NCBI GenBank assembly: GCA_002305115.1
Contig: DBQF01000001.1
Coordinates: 309,767-373,766 of the forward strand
Reading direction: 5' to 3'
Length of the DNA stretch: 64,000 nt
DNA from: a candidate division WWE3 bacterium UBA1401
GTDB lineage: Bacteria; Patescibacteriota; WWE3; UBA101185; UBA10185
Within the stretch, counting starts at the first letter, position 1; the number at the start of each line of letters is the position of its first letter. The notes under the pieces were generated by a model, which saw only the letters and a list, made by a program, of their open reading frames with translations, searched no databases and had not been told where the DNA came from. Below are positions 1,394 to 32,108 of this stretch, piece by piece. The position numbers and the translations under genes were made by a program.

Positions 1394-3475
1394 ATGGCTG
1401 AATCTAATAGTAAAACTTATCCACTAGATAAAATCAGGAATATTGGAATTATTGCCCACATAGACGCAGGCAAGACTACCACTACTGAAAGTATTCTCTA
1501 TTATACTGGTAAAACTCATAAAATTGGAGAGATTGATTCTGGTGACACTCAAATGGATTGGATGGATCAGGAAAGGGAAAGAGGTATTACTATACAATCG
1601 GCTGCTACGACTTCTTTTTGGAAAGATCACCGTATTAACATTATTGATACTCCCGGCCACGTAGACTTTACGGCAGAAGTTGAAAGGTCTTTGCGTGTAC
1701 TAGACGGTGCTGTAGTAGTTTTTGATGGTAAGCAGGGTGTAGAACCTCAATCCGAGACTGTATGGCGCCAGGCTGACAAATATCACGTACCTAGAATTTG
1801 CTTTATAAATAAGATTAACCAAATTGGCGGTGACTTTTTTAAAAGCTTAAGTTCTATTCATGAGCGCTTAAGCCCAAATGCTTTTCCAATTTACATTCCT
1901 ATTGGTTTTGAAAAAGATCTAAGAGGCAGTGTCGACCTGGTTAGAATGAAGGCCTACATATACTCAGATTTCAAACAAGACAACCTTGTAGAAGAAGATA
2001 TTCCTGAAGACCTTAAGGAGCAAGCCCTAGAATATAGGAAAGAACTAGTAGAAAAAGTGGTTGAGTTTGATGATGCCTTAATGGAAAAGTATCTAGAAGG
2101 TGGAGAAATTACTGAGGAAGAGTTGGTTGATGTTATTAGAAAAGCTACCATTTCAGGCAAATTTTACCCGGTCTTAGGTGGTGACGGTCGTGGTATTGCC
2201 GCTAAGTATGTTTTAGATTCTGTTGTGGCCTATCTCCCATCTCCTGCCGATTTACCTCCTGTAGTTGGTCATAAGGTTGGTACGGGTGAAGAGCTTATGG
2301 TTACGTCAGATGAAAATGGCCCTTTTGTAGCTTTAGCTTTCAAAGTGCAAACCGATCCCTATGTAGGTAGGCTTACATACTTCAGAATTTATTCAGGCAG
2401 GGCCGCTGCGGGATCTTACCTTTACAATTCCACTACTGGTAACAAAGAAAGACTGGGTCGTATTCTTTTAATGTATGCAAATAAAAGAGAAGAATTAAAG
2501 GAAATTAAGGCGGGTGAAATTGGAGCTGCTGTGGGTCTAGACGCCACAACCGGTAACACTTTATGCACAGAAGAAAACCCAATTGTTTTAGAAGCTATAA
2601 AGTTTGCTGAACCTGTTATTGGTATTGTGGTTGAACCAAAAACAAGCGCGGATAGGGATAAATTGGGTGAATCTTTACGCAAATTTACAGAAGAAGACCC
2701 GACATTAAAAGTAAAAAGCGACGAAGAAACTGCACAAACAGTACTCTATGGTATGGGCGAGCTCCATCTGGAAATTATTGTAGATAGAATGAAGAGGGAA
2801 TTTGGTGTGGAAGTAGTAACGGGCCAACCTCAGGTTGCTTACAGGGAAAGCATTCACAACAAAGTGCGGGTTGAAGATAAGTATATTCATCAGTCTGGTG
2901 GTCGTGGCCAGTATGGTCATGTTGTTATCGATATGGAACCTCTAGAGCCTGGTATGGGCGTATCATTTGAAGATAAAATCGTGGGCGGTGCCATTCCAAA
3001 AGAATTTATTCCGGCGGTTGAAAAGGGTATTAAGGCAGCTGCTGAGAGTGGTATTGTAGCTGGGTATCCTGTAGTTGATGTGAAAATTAGTTTGGTTGAT
3101 GGATCTTTCCACGAGGTAGATTCCTCAGAAATGGCGTTTAAGATTGCTGCGTCCAGCGCATTTAGGAAGGCACAACAGCAAGCTAAGCCTTATTTATTAG
3201 AACCAATTATGGCAGTGGAAGTAGTAACACCTGAAGACTTTATGGGTGACGTTATCGGTAACTTGTCTGGAAGAAGAGGTAAAATTGAAGGCACTTCAAC
3301 TAGGGGTACTGCCGTTGTCATTAAAGCAAAAGTTCCTTTGGCAGAGATGTTTGGTTATGCCACAGATCTTAGGGGTATGACACAAGGTCGCGCATCCTTT
3401 ACAATGGAACCAAGCCACTATGAGGAAGTACCCGCTCAAGTTGCTGAAAAGATTGTTTCAGGCCGCGCAAAGTAA
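1394..3475 (+). CDS. fusA: Elongation factor G
   Basis: 693 aa with GTPase motifs [14 protein letters not shown] and NKID-like NKIN. The EF-G domain IV/V sequence is conserved. Confidence 0.98.
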
Positions 3476-3597
3476 GCCGGAGGGCTTGATTTCCTACTAA
3501 GAATCTGGTTAACTTCTAAGCGCGCATATTAGTAATATTTATTTTCTACATTAGGAGTTAATGAAGTTTAAATCCTAAGTAGTCAGAAAGGTTAAAT

Positions 3598-4776
3598 ATG
3601 GCCGAATTCGTAAGAAATAAAGAGCATGTTAATGTTGGTACCATTGGACATGTTGACCATGGTAAAACTTCATTAACTGCAGCCATTACTAAAGTTTTAG
3701 CTGAAAAAGGTCAAGCCTCTTACAGAGGCTACGACAGTATCGATAGTGCTCCGGAAGAAAAAGAAAGAGGTATTACCATTAACATTACTCACGTTGAGTA
3801 TGAGACCGAAAAAAGGCATTATGCTCACATAGATGCCCCCGGTCACGCAGACTATATTAAGAACATGATTACTGGTGCTGCTCAGATGGATGGCGCTATT
3901 TTGGTTGTTTCCGCTCCAGATGGCCCTATGCCTCAAACTAGAGAGCATATCTTACTTGCTAAGCAAGTAAACGTTCCTGCTATGGTTGTTTTTATGAACA
4001 AAACAGACATGGTACAGGATAAAGAGATATTAGATTTAGTAGAACTTGAAGTTAGAGAGCTTCTTACTAAATATGGTTTTGATGGTGAAAGCGTGCCTGT
4101 AATTAAGGGTTCAGCTACCAAAGCTTTGGAAGGTGACGCTGAAGCTGTTAAAGCTATTGAAGAGCTTATCGAGGCTATTGACACTTATATTCCAAGCCCA
4201 CAAAGAGAATTGGATAAGCCATTCTTAATGCCGGTAGAAGACGTTTTCTCAATTTCTGGTAGAGGTACAGTTGCTACCGGAAGAATTGAAAGAGGTAAAG
4301 TCACTCTTAACGAAGAAGTTGAAATAGTTGGTATTAGAGATACTAGTAAGTCAACCGTTACCGGTATTGAGATGTTTAAGAAATCTATGCAAGAAGGCCA
4401 AGCAGGCGATAACGTTGGAATTCTTCTTAGAGGTCTGACCAGAGATGATATTGAAAGAGGCCAGGTGCTTGCTAAGCCAGGGACCATTAGTCCTCACACC
4501 GAATTTGAGGCAGAAGTTTACATTCTGTCTAAAGAAGAAGGTGGTCGACACAAGCCCTTCTTTACCGGATACAAGCCTCAGTTCTATCTTAGAACTACAG
4601 ATGTTACCGGTGATATTACTCTCCCGGAAGGTGTAGAAATGGTTATGCCTGGGGATAGAGTAACTATTAAAGTTAAGTTAATTACTCCGGTTGCTCTGGA
4701 GGAAGGTTTAAGGTTTGCTGTTAGAGAAGGCGGCCACACAGTTGGTGCTGGTGTTGTCTCTAAAGTAATTGCTTAA
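3598..4776 (+). CDS. tuf: Elongation factor Tu
   Basis: 392 aa with [13 protein letters not shown] and NKTD motifs. Typical EF-Tu C-terminus. Confidence 0.98.
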
Positions 4777-4788
4777 GGAAATAACAGT

Positions 4789-4811
4789 TTCCCTCCCCTG
4801 CGGGGGAGGGA
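4789..4811 (+). promoter_or_regulatory. Perfect 10-bp hairpin (TTCCCTCCCC-tgc-GGGGAGGGAA) between tuf and rpsJ, without a U-tract
   Basis: Base pairing checked by hand: 4789-4798 pairs with 4802-4811 around a 3-nt loop. No T-run follows, so I do not call it a classical intrinsic terminator. Confidence 0.5.
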
Positions 4812-4824
4812 AGCGTTAGACAGT

Positions 4825-5148
4825 ATGGCAAAAGGTACAAGTAAGGAAACAAGAATAAGAATAAAATTAAACTCGTACGACTCTAAAATTATGGATGTGA
4901 GTTGTTCCAAAATTGTTGATACAGCAATTAGAACAGGTGCTAAAGTGGTTGGACCTATTCCTTTGCCTACCAAAAAAGAAAGATTCACGGTTATTCGAGG
5001 TCCTCATATTGATAAAAGGTCTAGAGAGCAGTTTGAATTAAGAACCCATAAGCGAATCATTGATGTGCTTAATCCAACGCCTTCAACTATAGACAGTTTG
5101 TCTCACTTGGCTTTGCCCGCAGGCGTGGGTATAAGCCTGAAGATGTAA
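4825..5148 (+). CDS. rpsJ: 30S ribosomal protein S10
   Basis: 107 aa with the S10 sequence (..IRIKLNSYD...[34 protein letters not shown]). Confidence 0.97.
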
Positions 5149-5160
5149 AACTACTCTATT

Positions 5161-5188
5161 TTGAATTCTCCAATTTACATACTATAAT
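5161..5188 (+). promoter_or_regulatory. Sigma70-like promoter candidate (TTGAAT-16 nt-TATAAT) just after the rpsJ stop
   Basis: Hexamers and spacer counted by hand. It lies ~40 nt upstream of the first island ORF. Confidence 0.4.
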
Positions 5189-5228
5189 TCAACCCAGGTT
5201 GTAATATTTATTGAAAGGGCTGAGAGAA

Positions 5229-5801
5229 ATGCTTGATGATTCGGTTTTGTCGCCGATAGAGGTGGAGATTGTTACATTGGCTATGACAATGCCCCAAAGC
5301 TTAAGTGTAAGGGAGGCATTAACAAGTTCGTGGGTTGATAGGGTGCTTGTATTTGGTCATACTGCTTCGAATGCTGTTTTTCAAAGAGTGCAATCCGGAG
5401 TAGTTGTGGCAATTCAATCGGAACCTCCTAGCATACACCTGGTCTCCGTGAATTTCGCGGACTTATTGGCTAAGGATACTATGATCTATATTAAGCTAGC
5501 GGAGATGAAGGGGGGTCTGTTTGATTCTGTATTTAATGTTGTTGATGTAGCACCTTATTCTGGAACTTTTACCTGGTTTAGGTATGTCTTGGGAGACGCG
5601 AATCCCTGCGAGATTATCTATGATAGCGCAATACAACTAGATGATAATCCGCTTAGCGCTTTTCTGGAGAGATCCCTAAGTTTTTATGACAGGTGTATGT
5701 TTTACTTCAGGGTAATTGAGGCTGCGAGAAGAAACCCTTCTATAGTATCCGGCTTTGGGCGGTTGGCGAATTTGAAATCAGCTTGGCGACTTGAAGACTA
5801 A
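5229..5801 (+). CDS. Hypothetical protein (island ORF A); alternative TTG start at 5211
   Basis: Long ORF with no family I recognise. It sits between rpsJ and rplC and is followed by a hairpin plus T-run. Confidence 0.5.
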   Translation: MLDDSVLSPIEVEIVTLAMTMPQSLSVREALTSSWVDRVLVFGHTASNAVFQRVQSGVVVAIQSEPPSIHLVSVNFADLLAKDTMIYIKLAEMKGGLFDSVFNVVDVAPYSGTFTWFRYVLGDANPCEIIYDSAIQLDDNPLSAFLERSLSFYDRCMFYFRVIEAARRNPSIVSGFGRLANLKSAWRLED

Positions 5802-5849
5802 GCAGTAGAAACGGTGGTATGTGCCTCTGGCGCTTACTGCCGTTTTTTT
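5801..5849 (+). terminator. Putative intrinsic terminator after island ORF A
   Basis: AGCAGTA (5801-5807) pairs with TACTGC (5835-5840). An alternative pairing is AAACGG/CCGTTT with an inner GTGCC/GGCGC helix. T7 run at 5843-5849. Confidence 0.4.
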
Positions 5850-5891
5850 GGTATGATTAGCGAAGGTCGCTCAAAGTGAGAAAGGAAGCAG

Positions 5892-6116
5892 ATGAACCTT
5901 GTTTCCGGATTTACTCGGCTTGGGTGCACTACTTTGCAAGCAGCCTATCTACAGCATCGTATTGATGTAAGGATACTCCTTTCTAGAATTCAGAGTTCCG
6001 GTTTAGATCCTAATCACCGCATTTTGATGCTTCGGAGACTATGGTGGTTACGGGCTTATCCTTGGAGGGTTTTGCCAAAGACGCAGGAGAGTTACTATAA
6101 CTCTTCGTGCCCATAG
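5892..6116 (+). CDS. Doubtful small basic ORF (74 aa) inside the island; the region could instead be non-coding RNA
   Basis: AGGAAG lies a few nt before the ATG. The peptide is Arg/Leu/Trp-rich with no recognisable family. The unit ends at a good terminator (6124-6159). Confidence 0.25.
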   Translation: MNLVSGFTRLGCTTLQAAYLQHRIDVRILLSRIQSSGLDPNHRILMLRRLWWLRAYPWRVLPKTQESYYNSSCP

Positions 6117-6123
6117 GGCCTTG

Positions 6124-6159
6124 TCCTCGGGGTTTCTCCCTCCCCTACCCGAGGATTTT
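6124..6159 (+). terminator. Intrinsic terminator (TCCTCGGG / CCCGAGGA, 16-nt C-rich loop, then TTTT)
   Basis: 8-bp perfect stem: 6124-6131 pairs with 6148-6155, followed by TTTTC. Confidence 0.6.
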
Positions 6160-6176
6160 CTAATCTTTACTTAACC

Positions 6177-6184
6177 TGTATAAT
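6177..6184 (+). promoter_or_regulatory. Extended -10 element TGTATAAT, 6 nt upstream of the ATG at 6191 (would give a leaderless mRNA)
   Basis: Exact TGnTATAAT read in the sequence. I see no convincing -35 and no SD before the ATG. Confidence 0.3.
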
Positions 6185-6190
6185 TTACCC

Positions 6191-6958
6191 ATGACCGAAG
6201 ATCTTAGTTATCCTGGTTATGAGAATGCTGATAATGACTGGCAGTCCAAGCCCGAGAGAGAGCATTATTACAATGAAATTAAGGCCGCTGCTAACATCTT
6301 CTTTAATCTTAGGGAGTTATCTCTCTTAAATGAAACTGATGTTAAAGAATATCCAGAAATTGAGGATTTAAGATCTCGGCTGAATGGTGTTGTCAGGATG
6401 GCTCGTCAGATGTTTGGTAAAGAGTCCGAACTTTCACTCGATTATAGAGGTCTAGACTTAATGGGTAAATACTCTCCATTGCACGCCGCAAAGGAGTTAA
6501 CACCTAAAGCATTTGAAGACTGTGCCCCCTTAGTTATAGTTCAGGTTATATCGCTTAAAAGAGATGATCCTGAGTATATTCAAGAGCTGGTAGAAACGAT
6601 GCGTTCTTACGCGTTAGCCAAGGGGGCTGAAGATTCTCTTAAGGTTGCGAAAGCTACTTACAGAAATAAAGCCGACTTGTTTTCGGATAAGCCCTTAAAT
6701 ATTGCAGACGTTATTTATAGATGCAGTAATGTGCATGAGTCGATGCAATTTACTCAGGCTAAGTACGAAAATTTTTGGAAGAGAATTAGCCTAAGTGAAA
6801 AGGTGTCTCCAGAGGACAAGGAAAGTGCTGTTACAGAAGCTAACAATGTTCCCGATATAGAGGTTTTGAACAAGAAAATTCTAGAAGCTACTAAGATGAA
6901 TGAAGCCGATCTTACACCCCCCTCGGAGACACCTTGGCATTGGGGGAAGCAGAACTAA
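6191..6958 (+). CDS. Hypothetical acidic protein (island ORF C, 255 aa)
   Basis: Long ORF with no signal peptide and no family I recognise. It is followed by an intrinsic terminator at 7073-7102. Confidence 0.6.
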   Translation: MTEDLSYPGYENADNDWQSKPEREHYYNEIKAAANIFFNLRELSLLNETDVKEYPEIEDLRSRLNGVVRMARQMFGKESELSLDYRGLDLMGKYSPLHAAKELTPKAFEDCAPLVIVQVISLKRDDPEYIQELVETMRSYALAKGAEDSLKVAKATYRNKADLFSDKPLNIADVIYRCSNVHESMQFTQAKYENFWKRISLSEKVSPEDKESAVTEANNVPDIEVLNKKILEATKMNEADLTPPSETPWHWGKQN

Positions 6959-7072
6959 AAAACTTCCTATAAGAAACCACTTGGAAAACTGGGAAATTCT
7001 TGCTAAAATCACCCAGATGCTTTTAGCCATCACATAACAAAATCATTGACTACGTCTAGTGCGGCACCTAGC

Positions 7073-7102
7073 CCCCGCCACGACGCGGGGATTTTTTGTT
7101 TT
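7073..7102 (+). terminator. Intrinsic terminator (CCCCGC-cacgac-GCGGGG followed by ATTTTTTGTTTT) ending directly at the rplC ATG
   Basis: 6-bp GC stem: 7073-7078 pairs with 7085-7090. The T-rich run covers 7092-7102 and the rplC ATG is at 7103. Confidence 0.65.
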
Positions 7103-7534
7103 ATGACTGAAAAACTATTAAAAGGCAAAAAACTGAATATGACACAGGTCTTTAAAGAAGACGGTAAAGTAATTCCCGTTACCATCATCAAGATGGTAGA
7201 AGCTTTTGAACCTGAGCTAAAAGATAAAGACGTCACAGTTATTGGTACTTCAAAAGGTAAAGGTTATACCGGCCCTATCAAAAAATGGAACTTTGCCAAA
7301 CAACACGTCACAAGAGGTTCTTCCGATAAGATTAGAACCGGTGGTTCTATTGGTGCTCAAACTCCCGGCAGAGTTTTTAAAGGCAAAAAAATGGCTGGCA
7401 GGCATGGTAACAAGCGAGTAACAATTAAAGGGCTAAGAATAGTGGATGTAAATCAAACTCAAAATGAAGTATTTGTTTCAGGGCCAATACCTGGTGCCAG
7501 AAACTCCCAAGTAATTTTAAAGGTTGTAGGATAA
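7103..7534 (+). CDS. rplC: 50S ribosomal protein L3 (short form, 143 aa)
   Basis: MTEKLLKGKKLNMTQVFKEDGKVIPVTII.. matches the L3 N-terminus. GTSKGKGYTG, WNF and GSIGAQTPGRVFKGKKMAGRHG match the conserved core. The ORF-track start at 7046 adds a non-L3 extension that covers the terminator hairpin. Confidence 0.9.
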   Translation: MTEKLLKGKKLNMTQVFKEDGKVIPVTIIKMVEAFEPELKDKDVTVIGTSKGKGYTGPIKKWNFAKQHVTRGSSDKIRTGGSIGAQTPGRVFKGKKMAGRHGNKRVTIKGLRIVDVNQTQNEVFVSGPIPGARNSQVILKVVG

Positions 7535-7535
7535 T

Positions 7536-8162
7536 ATGAAACAACAAGTACTAGATATACAAGGAAACAAAGTAGAAGAACTTGAGCTTAGTGAAAATAT
7601 CTTTGGAATTAAACCTAATGAAACAGTCTTAGCTCAATACGTTCGTGTATTTTTGGCCAACCAGCGCCAGGGTACGTCTTCTACAAAAACTCGAGCAGAA
7701 GTGTCTGGAGGTGGTAAGAAACCCTGGAGGCAGAAAGGTACCGGTAGAGCTCGCCATGGGTCAACCAGAAGCCCTATTTGGCGCCACGGTGGCGTTGCTC
7801 ATGGTCCCAAGCCAAAAAGCTGGAGCTTAAGTTTACCTCAAAAAATTAGACAATTGGCTCTAAAGTCTGCCCTTTCCCAGAAGCAAGCTAATGACAAAAT
7901 AAAAATACTGTGTGAACTGGAAACTAATACTCCTTCTACAAAATTTATGAGGGAAGTTCTCACTAAACTGGAGTCAAATGGTAAAACATTAATAGTACTT
8001 GATACAGTTAAACCTAATGTGATAAAAAGCTCTTCAAACTTACCGGCTGTTAATACAGTTTTCTGGGAAGCACTAAATGCATATGACATATTAAGTACAG
8101 ATACTTTGATATTTACAAAAGATGCCGTACTAAAGCTACAGGAGAAATATGAAGCTAAATAA
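7536..8162 (+). CDS. rplD: 50S ribosomal protein L4
   Basis: 208 aa with SGGGKKPWRQKGTGRAR and GGVAHGPKP motifs. Confidence 0.95.
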   Translation: MKQQVLDIQGNKVEELELSENIFGIKPNETVLAQYVRVFLANQRQGTSSTKTRAEVSGGGKKPWRQKGTGRARHGSTRSPIWRHGGVAHGPKPKSWSLSLPQKIRQLALKSALSQKQANDKIKILCELETNTPSTKFMREVLTKLESNGKTLIVLDTVKPNVIKSSSNLPAVNTVFWEALNAYDILSTDTLIFTKDAVLKLQEKYEAK

Positions 8163-8439
8163 TATTGTAGAAAAACCTATAATAACCGAACAATCTATGG
8201 CCGATGTACATCAGGGCAAATACACGTTTAAGGTTAATACTAAGGCGTCAAAAAAAGAGATTGCTCAGGTTGTGCAAAGATTATTTAACGTACAAGTAAC
8301 CAATGTGACAACTCGTATAATGCCTGGAAAACAGAGAAGAATCGGCAGAACCAACAAATTTACAAAGACGAGCAGCTGGAAAAAAGCGGTAGTTAGTTTA
8401 GAGGAAGGACAGAAAATAGATCTGTTTGAGAAAAAATGA
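8149..8439 (+). CDS. rplW: 50S ribosomal protein L23
   Basis: 96 aa. L23-like sequence (..PIITEQS...KYTFKV...KKEI..) in the canonical position. Confidence 0.95.
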   Translation: MKLNNIVEKPIITEQSMADVHQGKYTFKVNTKASKKEIAQVVQRLFNVQVTNVTTRIMPGKQRRIGRTNKFTKTSSWKKAVVSLEEGQKIDLFEKK

Positions 8440-9263
8440 TAAAGGTACACAAACCAACCAGTGCAGGACAACGCGGTAGAAAGAGCCTTGTAAGAAAGGT
8501 TGCAACCAAACGTCCCGAGAAAGCGCTAACCGCTCCTTTAAAAGGCCCAGCTGGGAGAAATAACGGTACAGTTTCCAGCAGACACAGGCAGCGTGGAGCA
8601 AAAAAGCACTACAGAATAATAGATTTTAAGCGCGATAAGCTGGATATTCCCGCAAAAGTGGCTGCTATTGAACACGATCCTAATAGAGGTGCTGATATTG
8701 CACTACTGCACTATGCCGATGGTGAAAAAAGATATATTTTAGCCCCAGAAGGTTTGGAACCGGGGATGACTGTTATTTCCACAGATAATAAGGTAGAATT
8801 GGCACCCGGAAATACTGGTAAGCTTGCTAATATACCGTTAGGTACAGAAATTCATAACATTGAGTTTGTTCCTGGTAGAGGTGGGCAGATCGTAAGAGGA
8901 GCAGGCAACGCTGCTGTTATTTTGGCTAAAGAGGGCGACTATGTTAATGTTAAGCTGCCTAGCGGCGAGGTAAGAAAAGTATTTACAGAGTGTAGAGCTA
9001 CCTTAGGTAGAGTAAGTAACGTTGATTTAAGAAACGTTAATGCAGGTAAAGCTGGTAGAAAAAGACACTTGGGTAGAAGACCCCACACTAGAGGTGTGGC
9101 AGTCGCAAGTCCTAAGCAGCACCCACACGGTGGCTCCTACAAAGATACTGGTATTGGAATGGCGTCGCCTAAGTCACCTTGGGGTTGGAAGACTCGAGGA
9201 GTTAAGACTCGCAAGCGCAAACATACGGATAAATTTAAAGTTTCAGATCGTAGGAGAAAATAA
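8436..9263 (+). CDS. rplB: 50S ribosomal protein L2
   Basis: 275 aa with the L2 C-terminal motif [15 protein letters not shown]. Confidence 0.97.
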
Positions 9264-22124: not shown

Positions 22125-22811
22125 ATGACCTCCGAAAACAGGCCCAGGGAGAGGCTGAAAACAGTAGGCACATCTGCCCTTTCGGATGCCGAGCTTGTTG
22201 CTATTATTTTGCGCTCTGGCGGAGGCGGCCTATCTGCCCTTGGTCTTGCTAATGACCTCATTAGCAAGTTCGGGGGCATAAGGGGGTTATTAGCTGCCGA
22301 TATCCATCAGCTTCTTGCTGTAAGGCACATGGGTTTGGCTAAGGCCTGCTCTATAAAAGCAGTGAGCGAGCTTTGCCAGAGATCACATAGGGTATTGGAT
22401 GAATCAACAAAGGTTTATGTCCGTAATCCGGAAGATGTGTACAGTTTGTTAAGGCCCTTTTTATTTGCCAAGAAACAAGAGTGCTTGTATGTACTCTGTC
22501 TTGATAGTCACAAAAGACTGATTGCTAAAGAACTTGTTTCTGTAGGAAGTCTTACAGAAACTGTTGTAAGTGCGCGCGATATCTTTGCCAGGGCTATACA
22601 CAAGAACAGTGTGTCAATTATTTTGGCCCACAACCATCCTTCTGGTGAACCCACACCAAGTGATCAAGATATTGCTGTTACCAAAAGAATCTTGAAAGCA
22701 GGTACTATTTTGGGTATTCCGCTTATTGACCATGTAATTATCTGCGACAATGAATTTGTAAGTCTGAAAGTAGCTAATTTGTTGATTTCGGGAGGAGGTG
22801 AGCATTTTTGA
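22125..22811 (+). CDS. radC: RadC-like JAB-domain protein (UPF0758)
   Basis: N-terminal ..RPRERL...G...LSDAELVAIILRSG.. and the C-terminal JAMM motif HNHPSGEPTPSDQD. I prefer the ATG at 22125 over the ORF-track start at 22023. Confidence 0.85.
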   Translation: MTSENRPRERLKTVGTSALSDAELVAIILRSGGGGLSALGLANDLISKFGGIRGLLAADIHQLLAVRHMGLAKACSIKAVSELCQRSHRVLDESTKVYVRNPEDVYSLLRPFLFAKKQECLYVLCLDSHKRLIAKELVSVGSLTETVVSARDIFARAIHKNSVSIILAHNHPSGEPTPSDQDIAVTKRILKAGTILGIPLIDHVIICDNEFVSLKVANLLISGGGEHF

Positions 22812-23386
22812 CTAGACCTTTGAAAGTTTATTTCTCGCTGTTTTTATTAGTACTTTTGGTTGGAGGTGTAACTGTCGCCGCATTTACAGATAAAGCATCT
22901 ATTTTGGGAAGCTCATTTAGAGTGGGTAGTTCAGACATCAAGCTACTAGACATAATAGGAGGTGGCATAGATGTTTCCAACTTAGTAGATGAGAAGGCTG
23001 GCCCGGTTTTTGAGCAGATAAGCCCTGATTGGCAGGAGGATTATCTTGTACAGATTTATAACAATTCGCCAGCAAGTGTACTGCTTTCATCTAACGCAAA
23101 TTATGAAACCGCTAGTGACCCGGAGGAGTTAAGGCAACTTATTTTTGTTGAGCCTTTTGTGTGGGAGGATGCTAATGAAAATGGATTGGCGGAAGAGGGT
23201 GAATATGATCAATCGCTTGGTAGAAAAACTATTGTGAAGTGGAAGACCGAAGGGTTTGATTTCGGAGAATTACCCAGCGGTGCAGTTGTAGGGTTTTTAT
23301 TAAGATTTTCTACAGATAGTGTTCCGGAGTCTAAGCAGGGAGCAACCGGAGTGTTCGATTTTGAGTTCGATGCTATTGGGCTTTAA
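22808..23386 (+). CDS. Secreted TasA/camelysin-like protein with a SipW-type signal peptide (TTG start overlapping the radC stop)
   Basis: The N-terminus MTRPLKVYFSLFLLVLLVGGVTVAAFTDKASILG has a basic n-region, a hydrophobic core and an A-A-F-T-D box like TasA/TapA/camelysin. It ends ..GATGVFDFEFDAIGL. GGAGGAGG lies 8-9 nt upstream of the TTG. A SipW-type peptidase gene follows. Confidence 0.65.
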   Translation: MTRPLKVYFSLFLLVLLVGGVTVAAFTDKASILGSSFRVGSSDIKLLDIIGGGIDVSNLVDEKAGPVFEQISPDWQEDYLVQIYNNSPASVLLSSNANYETASDPEELRQLIFVEPFVWEDANENGLAEEGEYDQSLGRKTIVKWKTEGFDFGELPSGAVVGFLLRFSTDSVPESKQGATGVFDFEFDAIGL

Positions 23387-23862
23387 TGAGGTGTTGGGGG
23401 CGCCGGATGGCGCCCCTTTTACTTATGAAGTTACTTATAGTTATCTTATGTATCTATATAGCCATAAAGCTTTTGGATGTAGGCTTGTTTGTGGTAGGTA
23501 CTAATTCCATGGCACCGCAGATACCCCAAGGCAGTATTGTAGCTGTAGCCCCAGCAACAATTGTTGAAAAAGGTGATGTTATTACTTACAGATACAAAAA
23601 TAATCCTGCGCATCTAGTGACTCACAGGGTTATAGCTGTCAGACAGGCTGGTAAAGCTAATCTGTATACTACAAAGGGTGATAATAACTACTACAATGAC
23701 GCAGTACCTGTTAGCGCCCACGAAGTTGTCGGCAAAGTAATTTTTCCAATACCTTTTTTAGGCAATATTTACGAATTGATGCTTAATCCAATAATGCTGA
23801 TCTTGTTTTTTTATATTCCGATGGGTTATCTGGCCGGCAAGCTTATTAACGGTATAGACTAA
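23386..23862 (+). CDS. sipW: Signal peptidase I, SipW/archaeal-ER type (copy 1); the real start may be the ATG at 23425, downstream of the hairpin
   Basis: S26 motifs of the Ser-His type: GTNSMAPQI, LVTHRVIA and KGDNNYYND. It has an N-terminal TM and a C-terminal TM. Confidence 0.8.
   Translation: MRCWGRRMAPLLLMKLLIVILCIYIAIKLLDVGLFVVGTNSMAPQIPQGSIVAVAPATIVEKGDVITYRYKNNPAHLVTHRVIAVRQAGKANLYTTKGDNNYYNDAVPVSAHEVVGKVIFPIPFLGNIYELMLNPIMLILFFYIPMGYLAGKLINGID
23397..23420 (+). terminator. Strong GC hairpin plus T-run (GGGGCGCC-ggat-GGCGCCCC-TTTT) right after the TasA-like gene stop
   Basis: 8-bp perfect stem: 23397-23404 pairs with 23409-23416, followed by TTTT at 23417-23420. It lies inside the first 35 nt of the longest sipW ORF. 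Confidence 0.55.
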
Positions 23863-30016: not shown

Positions 30017-30676
30017 ATGAGAAGAGCTTTAGTTAGTTTGTTTGTGGTTGGTGCTGTGGTGGCTGCAGCGGTGGGTGTTACACGCGCTGTGTTTACGGAT
30101 AGGGAGGTCTCGCAGGGAAATGTCTTGGGAGTAGAGGACAATTTCACTTTAGTACTGGATGGTGAAAATAACGCTGGTAACAGAATTGGTTCTCTCAAGA
30201 AGCTGTTTAATGTTTCGAATTTGGTGCCTGGTGGTGAACCGGCTGTGGCTTATCTTGAGATCAAGAACGCCAGTGATATGCCTATGATCTTTAGGGTGTA
30301 TGCTGACAATGTTTCGGATAATCCTACTTCAGAAGGAAGACTGCGCGACAAGTTGCATGTTAAGGCCACTCTAAACCCGACAGACTATCCCAATCCTTAT
30401 CTAGATGGTGACCTTTATGGCAGTCCTGGTAATGTTATCGTCCAAGATGTTCGTGTACGGGATATCATAGGAACAGCACATGCGCTAGATAATATATCTG
30501 CTGCGTTTGATTATACAGAACCTCTTGAATCTGGGTATGTAGCTGTTTACAAGCTGGAGGTTTGGTTAGAGTTAGGTGCGGGTAACGCTTTCCAGGGGGA
30601 AGAATTAACTGGGGATTTGGTAGTTGATGCAACGCAGTACGATGGGCAAACAGAGAGCAGTGTTTTATGGAATTAG
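30017..30676 (+). CDS. Secreted TasA/camelysin-like protein, SipW-type signal (candidate major subunit)
   Basis: N-terminus MRRALVSLFVVGAVVAAAVGVTRAVFTDREVS. Internal LFNVSNLVPGGEPAVAYLEIKNAS motif. C-terminal AGNAFQGEELTGDLVVDATQ motif, as in TasA/camelysin. Strong RBS. Confidence 0.7.
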   Translation: MRRALVSLFVVGAVVAAAVGVTRAVFTDREVSQGNVLGVEDNFTLVLDGENNAGNRIGSLKKLFNVSNLVPGGEPAVAYLEIKNASDMPMIFRVYADNVSDNPTSEGRLRDKLHVKATLNPTDYPNPYLDGDLYGSPGNVIVQDVRVRDIIGTAHALDNISAAFDYTEPLESGYVAVYKLEVWLELGAGNAFQGEELTGDLVVDATQYDGQTESSVLWN

Positions 30677-30682
30677 GGGTTT

Positions 30683-30721
30683 TTCAGTTGCTGCTTGATC
30701 AAGTCCTGCCAAGCAACTGAA
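30683..30721 (+). promoter_or_regulatory. Intercistronic 10-bp perfect hairpin (TTCAGTTGCT ... AGCAACTGAA, 19-nt loop), no U-tract
   Basis: Pairing checked by hand. It lies 7 nt after the stop of the first TasA-like gene. Confidence 0.5.
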
Positions 30722-30762
30722 AGATCTGAGTTCTAGTTTAGAGTCTAAGGAGGTGAAAAGAT

Positions 30763-31371
30763 ATGAGAAGAATGTTAGCAAGTTTAGTGGTAGTTGTGAC
30801 TGTAGTTTCTGCTGTTGCAGGCGCAACTGGTGCAGTCTTTAGTGCCAGTGACAGCATTGAGGGCAATATTATAGCAACCGGTGTCATAAACCTTACTGTA
30901 AACGAATCCGCGGGCAAACCCTTTGAACTCTCAGGTGTATACCCTGGGTATATGAGTGACTGGGAATATCTGGATATTTATAACAATGATCACAGTCCCG
31001 ATGGTGTTCCTTTTGAGGGTTATATGGGTCTGGCCTATACAAGTGGTGAGACTTCCCTTTGGGATAAAGTCTGGGTAACTATGAAGACCGTTGGTCACGA
31101 CTCAGACTGTGACAATGGTGATGCAGGTGAAAAGGTTATTTACGATGGTTATGCCAAGAATTTTGGTAGTCATAGATTAGTAAGCTCCAGTAACTATTGG
31201 CACTTAGCTAATGAAGAAGATGGTTCTGGTACTCCTGCTGACAACATTAGAGTTGGCTATTCCGAGCGAGTTTGCCAGAAAGTAGGGCTTCACTCGTCTG
31301 CTGATTCCTCACTTATGGGCAAAAATGTAGAATTTACAGAAACCATAACTGCGGATAGCGATAATGACTAG
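30763..31371 (+). CDS. Secreted TasA-like paralogue, SipW-type signal
   Basis: N-terminus MRRMLASLVVVVTVVSAVAGATGAVFSASDSIEGN. Contains PFELSGVYPGYMSDWEYLDIYNN. AGGAGG RBS (..taaggaggtgaaaagatATG). Confidence 0.6.
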   Translation: MRRMLASLVVVVTVVSAVAGATGAVFSASDSIEGNIIATGVINLTVNESAGKPFELSGVYPGYMSDWEYLDIYNNDHSPDGVPFEGYMGLAYTSGETSLWDKVWVTMKTVGHDSDCDNGDAGEKVIYDGYAKNFGSHRLVSSSNYWHLANEEDGSGTPADNIRVGYSERVCQKVGLHSSADSSLMGKNVEFTETITADSDND

Positions 31372-31390
31372 TTGGTGTTGGTTTTGAGGT

Positions 31391-31418
31391 TGTATAAGGG
31401 AACGCGTGCCCTTATACA
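31391..31418 (+). promoter_or_regulatory. Intercistronic 10-bp perfect hairpin (TGTATAAGGG-aacgcgtg-CCCTTATACA), no U-tract
   Basis: Pairing checked by hand. It lies between the second TasA-like gene and sipW copy 2. Confidence 0.5.
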
Positions 31419-31451
31419 GCCCACTAAGCCAATAAATAATATAATAAAGCT

Positions 31452-32108
31452 ATGGCGATCAGACCAAAAAAACTAATTAACATAGGCTATTGGGCACTGC
31501 TGGTGCTTTTGCTGGTTATAGCCTGTACTTCTGCTTTGTCTATCTTTTCAATTCCCAGTGGCATACGTCTTTTTGTTGTTCAGTCCGGTTCAATGCAGCC
31601 TGCCATTAAAACAGGCAGCATTGTTGTGGTAAAAAAGAGCACTTCTTATGCCAAAGGTGATGTTATAACGTTCTCAGCTAAAAAAGGCAGTGATATAAAA
31701 AATCCAAAAAACCTTATTACGCATAGAATAATTGATATCAGAACAGACAATGACTTAACTAGCTATATAACTAAAGGTGATGCCAATAACGTAGAAGACT
31801 TTATTTCACCTGAGAGGGAACAAGTTCTAGGCAAAGTCATTTTTGCTATTCCTTATTTAGGTTATCCAGTTAGTTATGCAAAGACGCAGACCGGTTTTAT
31901 CGTACTTATAGTTATTCCTGCTACCCTTATTGTCTATAGTGAATTGCTACATATAAAAAACGAAGCTAAACGGCTTATGCAAGAAAGGAAAAAACGCAAA
32001 CTGACAAAGACAGAAGAACTGGAAGAAAAAGTTGGTGAGGAAATAATGGAAGTTGAACAAGATGTTAAAGAAATGTTTAAGAAAAAAGGTAAAAATGCAA
32101 AAGCCTGA
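31452..32108 (+). CDS. sipW: Signal peptidase I, SipW/archaeal-ER type (copy 2), with a C-terminal TM and a ~55-aa K/E-rich tail
   Basis: Motifs VVQSGSMQPAI, LITHRIID and KGDANNVED. It has an N-terminal TM, a second TM (GFIVLIVIPATLIVYSELL) and then a charged tail. Confidence 0.85.
   Translation: MAIRPKKLINIGYWALLVLLLVIACTSALSIFSIPSGIRLFVVQSGSMQPAIKTGSIVVVKKSTSYAKGDVITFSAKKGSDIKNPKNLITHRIIDIRTDNDLTSYITKGDANNVEDFISPEREQVLGKVIFAIPYLGYPVSYAKTQTGFIVLIVIPATLIVYSELLHIKNEAKRLMQERKKRKLTKTEELEEKVGEEIMEVEQDVKEMFKKKGKNAKA

What the first reader, a model, noticed from the sequence alone, without database searches (positions are those of the whole stretch)
5149..7102. ~1.95-kb island of unknown genes splitting rpsJ (S10) from rplC (L3)
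S10 and L3 are normally adjacent at the head of the S10 operon across bacteria (established knowledge). Here they are separated by a block that looks like independent transcription units:
- a TTGAAT-16-TATAAT promoter candidate (5161-5188);
- ORF A (190 aa, 5229-5801) followed by a hairpin and T7 run;
- a ~300-nt segment holding only a doubtful 74-aa basic ORF (5892-6116), ending in a clear terminator (6124-6159);
- a TGTATAAT element directly before ORF C (255 aa, acidic, 6191-6958);
- another clean terminator (7073-7102).

I recognise none of the three ORFs. I saw no integrase, no transposase and no flanking repeats.

Inference: the block is either an accessory cargo insertion in one of the most conserved operons, or a lineage-specific set of ribosome- or translation-associated factors. 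The 5850-6160 segment could be a non-coding RNA.
Basis: partly seen in the sequence, partly recalled or inferred. Interest (0 to 1): 0.7.

Follow-up and report, generated by a model that had tools for sequence, protein, structure and literature searches.

The report
Orphan-gene insert between rpsJ and rplC
In one uncultured candidate-division WWE3 bacterium, about 1.8 kb carrying two protein-coding genes with no detectable relatives sits in the spacer between the ribosomal genes for S10 and L3; that spacer is already an operon boundary in this lineage, so this is a modest lineage-specific insertion and not a break in a conserved operon.

Summary
The order is rpsJ (4825-5148), ORF A (5229-5801), a 390-nt segment, ORF C (6191-6958), then rplC (ATG at 7103).

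ORF A and ORF C are genuine coding sequences by frame-specific codon usage. ORF B (5892-6116) is not. Neither ORF A nor ORF C matches any family library, solved structure, phage or viral collection. Both found only themselves in multi-billion-protein searches.

All 11 closest relatives (WWE3-like CPR genomes and metagenome contigs) lack the block. They separate rpsJ and rplC by only 87-171 nt.

That short spacer is an operon boundary. Most copies carry an extended -10 promoter-like element. Nine of the 11 relatives carry a terminator-like hairpin 9-22 nt before the rplC ATG, or 56 nt in one of them.

The same junction is interrupted by unrelated genes in all five true Saccharibacteria sampled, and in other lineages.

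I found no mobility genes, no flanking repeats and no ncRNA support.

Verdict: a lineage-restricted orphan-gene insertion at a permissive inter-operon site. The function of the two proteins is unknown. Interest is low to moderate.

The parts
4787..4814 (+). Context: a perfect 12-bp G+C-rich hairpin with no T-run in the tuf-rpsJ spacer. It argues that rpsJ is co-transcribed with tuf.
   Evidence: dG -27.9 kcal/mol, z -6.9. Hairpins of different sequence occupy the same place in 8 relatives.
4825..5148 (+). rpsJ (ribosomal protein S10), the left flank.
   Evidence: Pfam Ribosomal_S10, E 3.4e-34. 70-86% identical to WWE3-like relatives.
5161..5188 (+). Promoter-like TTGAAT-16-TATAAT in front of ORF A. 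No terminator lies between rpsJ and ORF A, so read-through from rpsJ is also possible.
   Evidence: 10 of 12 match, the best + strand site. The regional count is not above chance, so this is only suggestive.
5229..5801 (+). ORF A: 190 aa, pI 4.8, no TM segment. An orphan protein-coding gene.
   Evidence: Codon-frame score +0.167, at the 12th percentile of real-gene windows; no off-frame window scores as high. It found only itself among 5.8 billion protein clusters. No Pfam, PHROG, NCBIfam, PADLOC, PDB or phage match. AF2 pLDDT 36.
5803..5850 (+). Strong intrinsic-terminator-like hairpin with a T7 run (5843-5849). It would end the rpsJ/ORF A transcript.
   Evidence: dG -25.4 kcal/mol, z -5.66, matched by 0 of 200 shuffles. 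Its inner stem is listed.
5851..6190 (+). Middle segment, including the doubtful ORF B (5892-6116) and a weak hairpin (6123-6156 plus about four T). Most likely non-coding or decayed sequence. G+C is 46.5%.
   Evidence: ORF B codon-frame score is -0.069, unlike both real-gene windows and off-frame windows (0.1% each). It is not in the protein collection and has no homologue. No Rfam hit. Folding z -1.41 on the + strand and -0.61 on the - strand. Hairpin z -1.1.
6177..6184 (+). TGTATAAT -10 element six nt upstream of the ORF C ATG. The geometry predicts a leaderless mRNA that starts at or near A6191.
   Evidence: Read from the sequence. The same geometry occurs at the host genes starting at 24770, 39004, 42468 and 48687.
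6191..6958 (+). ORF C: 255 aa, pI 5.0, hydrophilic, predicted all-helical. An orphan protein-coding gene.
   Evidence: Codon-frame score +0.31, at the 75th percentile of real-gene windows. It found only itself among 5.8 billion clusters and in an exhaustive phmmer scan of 1.84 billion representatives. No family, PDB, phage or viral match. AF2 pLDDT 39.
6981..7009 (+). Ancestral rplC promoter-like element: TTGGAA-17-TAAAAT with an upstream TG (TGCTAAAAT, 7001-7009). Not part of the insert.
   Evidence: Seven of 11 island-free relatives have a TGnTAnnnT element in their short rpsJ-rplC spacer.
7073..7097 (+). Ancestral rplC leader hairpin (six G-C pairs) plus T6, ending 12 nt before the rplC ATG. 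It is a candidate attenuator and also the nearest terminator downstream of ORF C. Not part of the insert.
   Evidence: A comparable hairpin plus T-run ends 9-22 nt before the rplC ATG in 8 of 11 island-free relatives, and 56 nt before it in a ninth.
7103..7534 (+). rplC (ribosomal protein L3, short 143-aa form), the right flank. rplD follows at 7536.
   Evidence: TIGR03625 E 1.9e-40 and Pfam Ribosomal_L3. Alignment with relatives.

Best explanation
About 1.8 kb (roughly 5149-6958) is a lineage-restricted insertion into the inter-operon spacer between rpsJ and the rplC operon of a candidate-division WWE3 (CPR) bacterium. In this clade rpsJ is the last gene of an rpsL-rpsG-fusA-tuf-rpsJ unit.

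Shown: the insert carries two real protein-coding orphan genes, ORF A and ORF C. Both are co-oriented with the ribosomal genes. About 390 nt of probably non-coding or decayed sequence lies between them.

Inferred expression:
- ORF A is transcribed by read-through from rpsJ, from the 5161-5188 promoter-like site, or both. Its transcript stops at the strong terminator at 5803-5850.
- ORF C is transcribed as a leaderless mRNA from the TGTATAAT element six nt before its ATG. It stops at, or reads through, the ancestral rplC leader hairpin.

The ancestral rplC promoter and leader hairpin remain intact downstream of the insert, so rplC-operon control should be unchanged.

Inferred role: the two acidic, cytoplasmic proteins are accessory cargo, not ribosomal components. 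Their biochemical function is unknown. The site is permissive because it is an operon boundary, as the unrelated insertions at the same junction in Saccharibacteria show.
For: Absence from relatives:
- All 11 closest relatives lack the block and have spacers of 87-171 nt. tblastn with ORF A, B and C against all 160 fetched loci found nothing.

The junction is an operon boundary and is recurrently interrupted:
- The spacers carry a TGnTAnnnT element in 7 of 11 relatives and a hairpin plus T-run in 9 of 11. From the shuffle rate, about 0.5 such hairpins would be expected by chance.
- Of 77 S10 loci, 63 have L3 adjacent, 8 are interrupted, and 6 show no L3 within 3-6 kb.
- The Saccharibacteria inserts encode NUDIX, HAD, an ABC ATPase, a VTT-domain membrane protein and unknown proteins.

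The two ORFs are coding:
- Frame-specific codon scores are +0.167 for ORF A and +0.31 for ORF C. Real genes score 0.10-0.38 and off-frame windows about -0.44.

The two ORFs are orphans:
-.

Expression signals:
- Strong terminator after ORF A.
- The ORF C -10 geometry is shared with host housekeeping genes.

Precedent:
[quoted passage not shown] They account for 67% of rearrangement events (PMC8046335).
Against: - No transcript data, so promoters, terminators and the leaderless start are predictions from consensus matches.
- No homologues exist, so selection on the ORFs cannot be measured and their function cannot be inferred.
- The closest relatives are only 70-86% identical in S10. The insertion cannot be dated, and unsampled close relatives may share it.
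- Composition is only mildly atypical, which says nothing about origin. G+C is 0.423 against 0.399. Tetranucleotide distance is at the 98.7th percentile for a 1.8-kb window but only 1.1-1.95 sd for 1-kb windows.
- Assembly was not checked against reads.
Confidence: 0.65

Rival explanations
1. ORF A and/or ORF C are lineage-specific ribosome- or translation-associated factors. They would be placed between rpsJ and rplC so that they are co-expressed stoichiometrically with ribosomal proteins.
For: Their position and orientation lie within the most highly expressed gene cluster. No terminator separates rpsJ from ORF A. ORF C has codon usage typical of host genes. Acidic proteins could bind basic ribosomal proteins, but that is inference only.
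Against: They are absent from all 11 relatives, including those with 84-86% identical S10. There is no hit to any ribosomal or assembly-factor family. A strong terminator and separate promoter-like sites isolate the genes from the rplC operon. Genes at the same junction in Saccharibacteria are mostly general metabolic or membrane genes (NUDIX, HAD, a VTT-domain membrane protein).
Confidence: 0.08
2. The block is a remnant of a mobile element, prophage or defence/toxin-antitoxin cassette that has lost its mobility genes.
For: It is restricted to one genome. G+C and tetranucleotide usage are mildly atypical. The middle segment looks non-coding or decayed and has higher G+C. The structure is a set of small self-contained transcription units.
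Against: There is no integrase or transposase, no direct or inverted flanking repeats, and no boundary duplication. There are no PHROG, PADLOC, IMG/VR or INPHARED matches. No tRNA lies nearby. Codon usage falls within the host range.
Confidence: 0.15
3. The ORFs arose locally, either de novo or by runaway divergence from expanded intergenic DNA. They may be young genes or proto-genes.
For: There are no homologues among billions of proteins. AF2 confidence is low. The neighbouring ORF B region has expression-like signals but no coding signature. The host-like -10 geometry could be home-grown.
Against: Uninterrupted ORFs of 190 and 255 codons with a clear frame-specific codon bias are long for de novo genes. 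The ancestral spacer is under 175 nt, so about 1.8 kb of new DNA still needs a source. No internal repeats or duplications were detected.
Confidence: 0.07
4. Assembly artefact: foreign DNA was chimerically joined into the contig between rpsJ and rplC.
For: The source appears to be a metagenome-derived genome (a 544-kb contig). The block occurs in no other assembly.
Against: Both flanks continue the syntenic str / S10 / spc order seen in relatives, so two precise mis-joins would be needed. There are no Ns. No repeat is present at the boundaries. Codon usage of ORF C is typical of the host. The proteins are recorded from two sources, NCBI and Logan.
Confidence: 0.04
5. The 5850-6160 segment encodes a structured non-coding RNA.
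For: It has the highest local G+C (46.5%). It is bounded by a terminator upstream and a hairpin downstream. A TGGTATGAT extended -10-like element lies at 5849-5857 (read).
Against: There is no Rfam match even at E <= 10. The folding energy is not exceptional, with z -1.41 on the + strand and -0.61 on the - strand. No homologous sequences exist for a covariation test.
Confidence: 0.08

Closest known systems
Small gene insertions between concatenated ribosomal-protein operons (bfd-bfr between str and S10 in Gammaproteobacteria; ilvEBNC-leuABCD between str and S10 in Bacilli; Brandis 2021, PMC8046335)
   Same: [quoted passage not shown] Flanking order and orientation are kept, and no mobility genes are involved.
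   Different: Here the operon boundary lies one gene further along, after rpsJ and not before it. The cargo is two orphan genes of unknown function, not known metabolic genes. It is seen in only one genome so far.
Interrupted rpsJ|rplC junction in Saccharibacteria
   Same: The same CPR superphylum and the same junction. 0.9-3 kb of non-ribosomal genes lie between rpsJ and rplC, and some of them are orphans.
   Different: The gene content is unrelated (NUDIX, HAD, an ABC ATPase, a VTT membrane protein, a large acidic protein). Some of those genes are on the opposite strand. There is no sequence similarity to ORF A or ORF C.
rpsJ as the tail of the str operon (rps12-rps7-fus-tuf-rps10), as described for cyanobacteria, plastids and archaea (from my own knowledge)
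   Same: rpsJ follows tuf closely. A conserved non-terminator hairpin lies between them, and rpsJ is separable from rplC. Sampled loci such as Xenococcus (L054) have tuf-rpsJ with no L3 within 6 kb.
   Different: In the WWE3 relatives rplC still follows within 87-171 nt. The genes remain neighbours even though they look like separate transcription units.
E. coli S10-operon leader attenuator, which responds to L4 (PMC3616713)
   Same: A terminator-type hairpin sits in the leader immediately upstream of the first gene of the operon that encodes L4. That is the layout of the conserved hairpin before rplC.
   Different: There is no sequence or Rfam similarity. It is a single short hairpin, not five helices. 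It precedes rplC, not rpsJ. A response to L4 is untested. This comparison concerns the flank, not the insert.

Membership tests
Inter-operon insertion in the ribosomal-protein gene supercluster | The extra genes lie in a spacer between transcription units, not inside one. | tested here: met
   Island-free relatives have a promoter-like TGnTAnnnT element and a hairpin plus T-run in the rpsJ-rplC spacer. The window keeps both downstream of the insert, at 6981-7009 and 7073-7097. Transcription units are predicted, not measured.
Inter-operon insertion in the ribosomal-protein gene supercluster | Flanking gene order is conserved, and relatives lack the insert. | tested here: met
   11 of 11 closest relatives have rpsJ and rplC 87-171 nt apart. 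The window order rpsL-rpsG-fusA-tuf-rpsJ ... rplC-rplD-rplW-rplB is intact.
Mobile genetic element or genomic island | An integrase, transposase or recombinase gene. | tested here: not met
   Only ORFs A, B and C are present. None hits Pfam, PHROGs or NCBIfam.
Mobile genetic element or genomic island | Flanking direct or inverted repeats, a target-site duplication, or a tRNA target. | tested here: not met
   There are no significant repeats. The boundary sequences are unrelated. The window holds no tRNA or other Rfam family.
Mobile genetic element or genomic island | Clearly foreign base composition. | tested here: inconclusive
   G+C is 0.423 against 0.399 (97th percentile). Tetranucleotide distance is at the 98.7th percentile at 1.8 kb but only 1.1-1.95 sd at 1 kb. 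Codon usage lies within the host range.
Known anti-phage defence or toxin-antitoxin systems (PADLOC-DB) | A match to a model of a known defence protein. | tested here: not met
   No family matched at E <= 1 for ORF A, B or C.
Ribosomal protein or ribosome-assembly factor | Homology to a known family, or conservation at this position across the clade. | tested here: not met
   No Pfam or NCBIfam hits. Absent from all relatives.
Ribosomal protein or ribosome-assembly factor | Physical association with ribosomes. | not testable with these tools
   This needs proteomics of purified ribosomes from an uncultured organism.
Structured ncRNA (any Rfam family), for 5850-6160 | A covariance-model match, or a structure with covariation support. 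| tested here: not met
   No Rfam hit at gathering score or at E <= 10. Folding z -1.41 and -0.61. Covariation cannot be tested because there are no homologues.
Intrinsic (Rho-independent) terminator, for 5803-5850 | A stable G+C-containing stem-loop followed directly by a T-run. | tested here: met
   dG -25.4 kcal/mol, z -5.66, T7 at 5843-5849. Termination activity itself was not measured.
L4-responsive S10-leader attenuator (E. coli type), for hairpin 7073-7097 | A terminator hairpin in the leader of the operon that encodes L4. | tested here: met
   The hairpin plus T6 ends 12 nt before the rplC ATG, and rplD is the next gene. It is conserved in 9 of 11 relatives.
L4-responsive S10-leader attenuator (E. 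coli type), for hairpin 7073-7097 | Sequence or structure homology to the E. coli leader, and L4-dependent termination. | tested here: not met
   No Rfam family matched this region at E <= 10, but I did not confirm that the library holds a model of the E. coli S10 leader. MAFFT and RNAalifold found no shared structure beyond the single hairpin. L4 dependence cannot be tested here.

The most novel reading that the evidence does not exclude
ORF A and ORF C are newly evolved proteins, either de novo or diverged beyond recognition. The lineage has wired them into its most highly expressed gene cluster, as a new translation-associated factor or as an effector of the CPR episymbiotic lifestyle. ORF C would be made from a leaderless mRNA. 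The case would also mark rpsJ|rplC as a recurrent cradle or landing pad for new genes across CPR, as the Saccharibacteria junctions suggest.
Probability: 0.1. Interest if true: 0.6.

Novelty: new member of a known kind. Interest (0 to 1): 0.25.

Why it matters
If the reading is right, the finding is mainly a caution and a small comparative point. In WWE3-like CPR bacteria, rpsJ belongs with tuf, and rplC starts its own unit behind a conserved promoter and terminator-like leader. "S10-L3 adjacency" is therefore not an operon constraint there.

The junction tolerates insertions. This genome shows one, all five sampled Saccharibacteria show others, and so do some Fimbriimonadales.

The two orphan proteins add to the large unknown proteome of CPR. 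They would be worth attention only if they proved to be expressed at ribosomal-protein levels or shared by a wider clade.

The conserved hairpin directly in front of rplC is a more testable lead than the island itself. It is a candidate autoregulatory attenuator in a phylum where no ribosomal-protein leaders are characterised.

Tried and rejected
**Homology searches for ORF A, B and C (all empty)**
- Pfam, PHROGs, NCBIfam and PADLOC gave only noise at E >= 0.05.
- PDB sequences gave E >= 0.7.
- The 5.8-billion-cluster protein search returned only the query itself for ORF A and ORF C, and nothing for ORF B.
- Exhaustive phmmer of ORF C against 1.84 billion representatives returned only itself.
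- IMG/VR pattern scans found nothing.
- tblastn against INPHARED phages found nothing.
- tblastn against the window and all 160 fetched loci found no paralogues or relatives.
- Self-comparison and A-versus-C comparison found no internal repeats and no relationship.

**Structure**
- AlphaFold2 without an alignment gave pLDDT 36 for ORF A and 39 for ORF C.
- I did not run fold searches, because models of that quality give meaningless matches.

**Context look-up**
- The look-up of encoding contigs has neither protein on record, so the source contig could not be fetched.

**ncRNA**
- Rfam at gathering score on the whole window, and at E <= 10 on 4700-7300, gave only a chance CRISPR-DR57 match to the tuf-rpsJ hairpin.
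- Folding z-scores were unremarkable.

**Mobile-element signatures**
- The repeat search and the boundary alignment were both negative.
- The shared TCCCTCCCCT 10-mer (4790 and 6137) occurs at chance frequency.

**rplC leader**
- An automatic alignment and consensus fold of nine rplC leaders failed to align the hairpins.
- I relied instead on independent detection of the hairpin in each sequence.

**Literature**
- A search for rpsJ/rplC synteny in CPR found nothing relevant.
Full report
**What is there**

The window opens with rpsL (496-903), rpsG (903-1370), fusA (1394-3475), tuf (3598-4776) and rpsJ (4825-5148). rplC, rplD, rplW, rplB and the rest of the S10/spc/alpha cluster follow from 7103 (S10 and L3 identities).

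Between the rpsJ stop (5148) and the rplC ATG lie 1954 nt. The ATG is at 7103, not 7104 or 7106. The interval holds ORF A (5229-5801, 190 aa), ORF B (5892-6116, 74 aa) and ORF C (6191-6958, 255 aa), all on the + strand.

- TTGAAT-16-TATAAT at 5161-5188.
- A hairpin plus T7 after ORF A. This is a very good intrinsic-terminator shape (5803-5850, dG -25.4 kcal/mol, z -5.7).
- A weaker hairpin at 6123-6156. It has a 16-nt loop and about four T (z -1.1).
- TGTATAAT at 6177-6184, six nt before the ORF C ATG.
- A six-G-C-pair hairpin plus T6 at 7073-7097.

Promoter-like and terminator-like sites as a class are not enriched in 3400-9000 over shuffles. Individual promoter calls are therefore only suggestive.

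**Are the ORFs genes?**

I trained a frame-specific codon model on 50-odd genes of the window. ORF C scores +0.31 per codon, at the 75th percentile of equal-length windows from real genes. ORF A scores +0.167, at the 12th percentile. No off-frame or antisense window reaches either value.

ORF B scores -0.069. That value is unlike both real-gene windows and off-frame windows (0.1% each), which is what neutral non-coding DNA should look like. ORF B is also missing from the public protein collection, which does hold ORF A and ORF C from this 544-kb contig. It has no homologue.

So the block holds two genes plus about 390 nt of probably non-coding or decayed DNA. That segment has the highest local G+C, 46.5%.

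**What are the proteins?**

Nothing recognisable.
- There is no Pfam, PHROG, NCBIfam or PADLOC family.
- There is no PDB sequence match.
- Neither has a relative among 5.8 billion protein clusters.
- ORF C has no relative in an exhaustive phmmer scan of 1.84 billion representatives.
- IMG/VR and the INPHARED phages gave nothing.
- There are no paralogues in the window or in 160 related loci.
- There are no internal repeats, and ORF A and ORF C are unrelated to each other.

Both proteins are acidic (pI 4.8 and 5.0) and lack hydrophobic segments. Single-sequence AlphaFold2 models are unusable, with pLDDT 36 and 39, so I did not run fold searches.

In a spot check of ten other non-obvious ORFs in the window, five also lack any Pfam hit. 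Unknown proteins are common in this genome.

**Whose genome, and what do relatives have?**

S10 places the window in candidate division WWE3 (Katanobacteria, CPR). The best genome hits are WWE3 MAGs at 84%, 80% and 70% identity. Six metagenome contigs have 56-66% identical L3 and 77-86% identical S10.

In all 11 of these relatives rpsJ and rplC are neighbours, separated by only 87-171 nt.

**The junction is an operon boundary, not the inside of an operon**

Nine of the 11 island-free relatives have a terminator-type hairpin plus T-run in the short spacer. Its stem ends 9-22 nt before the rplC ATG in eight of them and 56 nt before it in the ninth. Seven have a TGnTAnnnT extended -10-like element further upstream. 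At the chance rate measured (about 0.4 per kb per strand), roughly 0.5 hairpins would be expected in these ~1.4 kb.

The window has the same pair downstream of ORF C: TTGGAA-17-TAAAAT with TG at 6981-7009, and the hairpin at 7073-7097.

The hairpin sits between a promoter-like element and the first codon of the operon that encodes L4. Its layout recalls the E. coli S10-leader attenuator (PMC3616713). There is no sequence or Rfam similarity, and a response to L4 is untested.

On the other side, the tuf-rpsJ spacer carries a very stable hairpin without a T-run (4787-4814, z -6.9). Eight relatives have one too, with different sequences. This suggests that rpsJ is transcribed with tuf.

The insertion thus sits between two transcription units. 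Both units' own signals appear intact.

**The junction is recurrently invaded**

Of 77 informative S10 loci from across bacteria, 63 have L3 adjacent, 8 have 0.9-5.5 kb in between, and 6 show no L3 within 3-6 kb. This sample is not random. One of the six (L006) has L4, so its L3 was probably just missed.

All five genuine Saccharibacteria loci are interrupted, each by different content:
- NUDIX hydrolase, with or without a HAD hydrolase, plus a small membrane protein;
- an ABC ATPase with two ABC domains;
- a VTT-domain membrane protein;
- an 810-aa acidic protein on the opposite strand;
- several unknown proteins.

Published work on the same gene supercluster reports that small insertions into inter-operon spacers are the commonest rearrangement. 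[quoted passage not shown] This case is another member of that class. The operon boundary is shifted by one gene, and the cargo is unrecognisable.

**Origin of the insert**

I found no integrase or transposase and no direct or inverted repeats. The two boundaries share no similarity. There is no tRNA in the whole 64 kb.

Composition is mildly off. G+C is 0.423 against 0.399, and tetranucleotide distance is at the 98.7th percentile for a 1.8-kb window. With 1-kb windows the distance is only 1.1-1.95 sd, which is no more extreme than tuf. Codon usage is within the host range.

The ORF C start has a -10 element 6 nt before the ATG. Host genes at 24770 (ClpB-like), 39004, 42468 (the gene I labelled gltX) and 48687 have one 6-7 nt before theirs. 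ORF C therefore looks well adapted to local expression rules.

These data do not discriminate between old horizontal acquisition, a decayed mobile or defence cassette, and local origin.

**ncRNA idea**

There is no Rfam match in the window at gathering score, and none in 4700-7300 at E <= 10 apart from a chance CRISPR-repeat match to the tuf-rpsJ hairpin. Folding of 5858-6160 gives z -1.41 on the + strand and -0.61 on the - strand. No homologues exist for covariation analysis. The idea is unsupported but not excluded.

**Most likely mechanism**

Shown:
- two orphan coding genes lie in a clade-specific insert;
- the ancestral rplC promoter-like element and leader hairpin are retained;
- a strong terminator shape follows ORF A.

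Inferred:
- ORF A is expressed by read-through from tuf-rpsJ and/or from the 5161-5188 site, and its transcript ends at about 5850;
- ORF C is a leaderless transcript that starts at about 6191 and ends at, or reads through, the rplC leader hairpin;
- the proteins are accessory cytoplasmic factors unrelated to the ribosome;
- the site was available because it is an inter-operon gap.

My confidence in this overall reading is about 0.65. The rivals are a decayed mobile or defence remnant (0.15), a translation-associated factor (0.08), an ncRNA in the middle segment (0.08), local gene birth (0.07) and an assembly artefact (0.04).

**Verdict**

The insertion is real and lineage-specific. It does not split a conserved operon, one of its "terminators" is ancestral, ORF B is not a gene, and nothing points to a ribosomal role or an ncRNA.

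It is a new member of a known kind of event. Interest is low to moderate (0.25).

Noticed in passing
window 7103-7534; L001-L005, L081-L086: L3 in this genome and its WWE3-like relatives has only about 143 aa. It lacks roughly 65 residues (about positions 33-100) that are present in the Saccharibacteria and Fimbriimonadales L3 sequences.
   Followed up: partly
window 7073-7097 and the equivalent position in L001-L005, L081, L082, L085, L086: A terminator-like hairpin plus T-run lies immediately upstream of the rplC ATG in 9 of 11 relatives. In most of them it sits downstream of an extended -10-like element. It is a candidate ribosomal-protein leader attenuator with no Rfam counterpart.
   Followed up: partly
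window 4787-4814; tuf-rpsJ spacers of L001, L002, L004, L081-L085: A very stable G+C-rich hairpin without a T-run (dG -27.9 kcal/mol, z -6.9) lies between tuf and rpsJ. It is conserved in structure but not in sequence across relatives, and often has a GNRA-like tetraloop.
   Followed up: partly
L012 6310-8119; L015 6304-9294; L017 453-1427; L021 6304-7890; L029 6313-8695: All five genuine Saccharibacteria loci have 0.9-3 kb of unrelated genes between rpsJ and rplC: NUDIX, HAD, an ABC ATPase, a VTT-domain membrane protein, an 810-aa acidic protein and unknown proteins. Fimbriimonadales loci L041 and L052 are interrupted too.
   Followed up: partly
window 24770, 39004, 42468, 48687 (and 6191): Several genes have a -10 or extended -10 element ending 6-7 nt before the ATG and no Shine-Dalgarno sequence. 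This suggests frequent leaderless mRNAs in this genome.
   Followed up: partly
window 22808-23862 and 30017-32108: There are two SipW-type signal peptidase I genes (23386-23862 and 31452-32108). Each sits next to small proteins with AFTD-type (SipW-dependent) signal peptides, at 22808, 30017 and 30763. The last two look like paralogues.
   Followed up: partly
window 1-64000: No Rfam family at gathering score, not even a tRNA, occurs anywhere in the 64 kb.
   Followed up: no
L004 (CAZXUJ010000001.1): The record title says Candidatus Saccharibacteria. However, its S10 is 79% identical to the window's, it has the short L3 form, and its rpsJ-rplC spacer is short like those of the WWE3 group. The taxonomic label may be wrong.
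   Followed up: no
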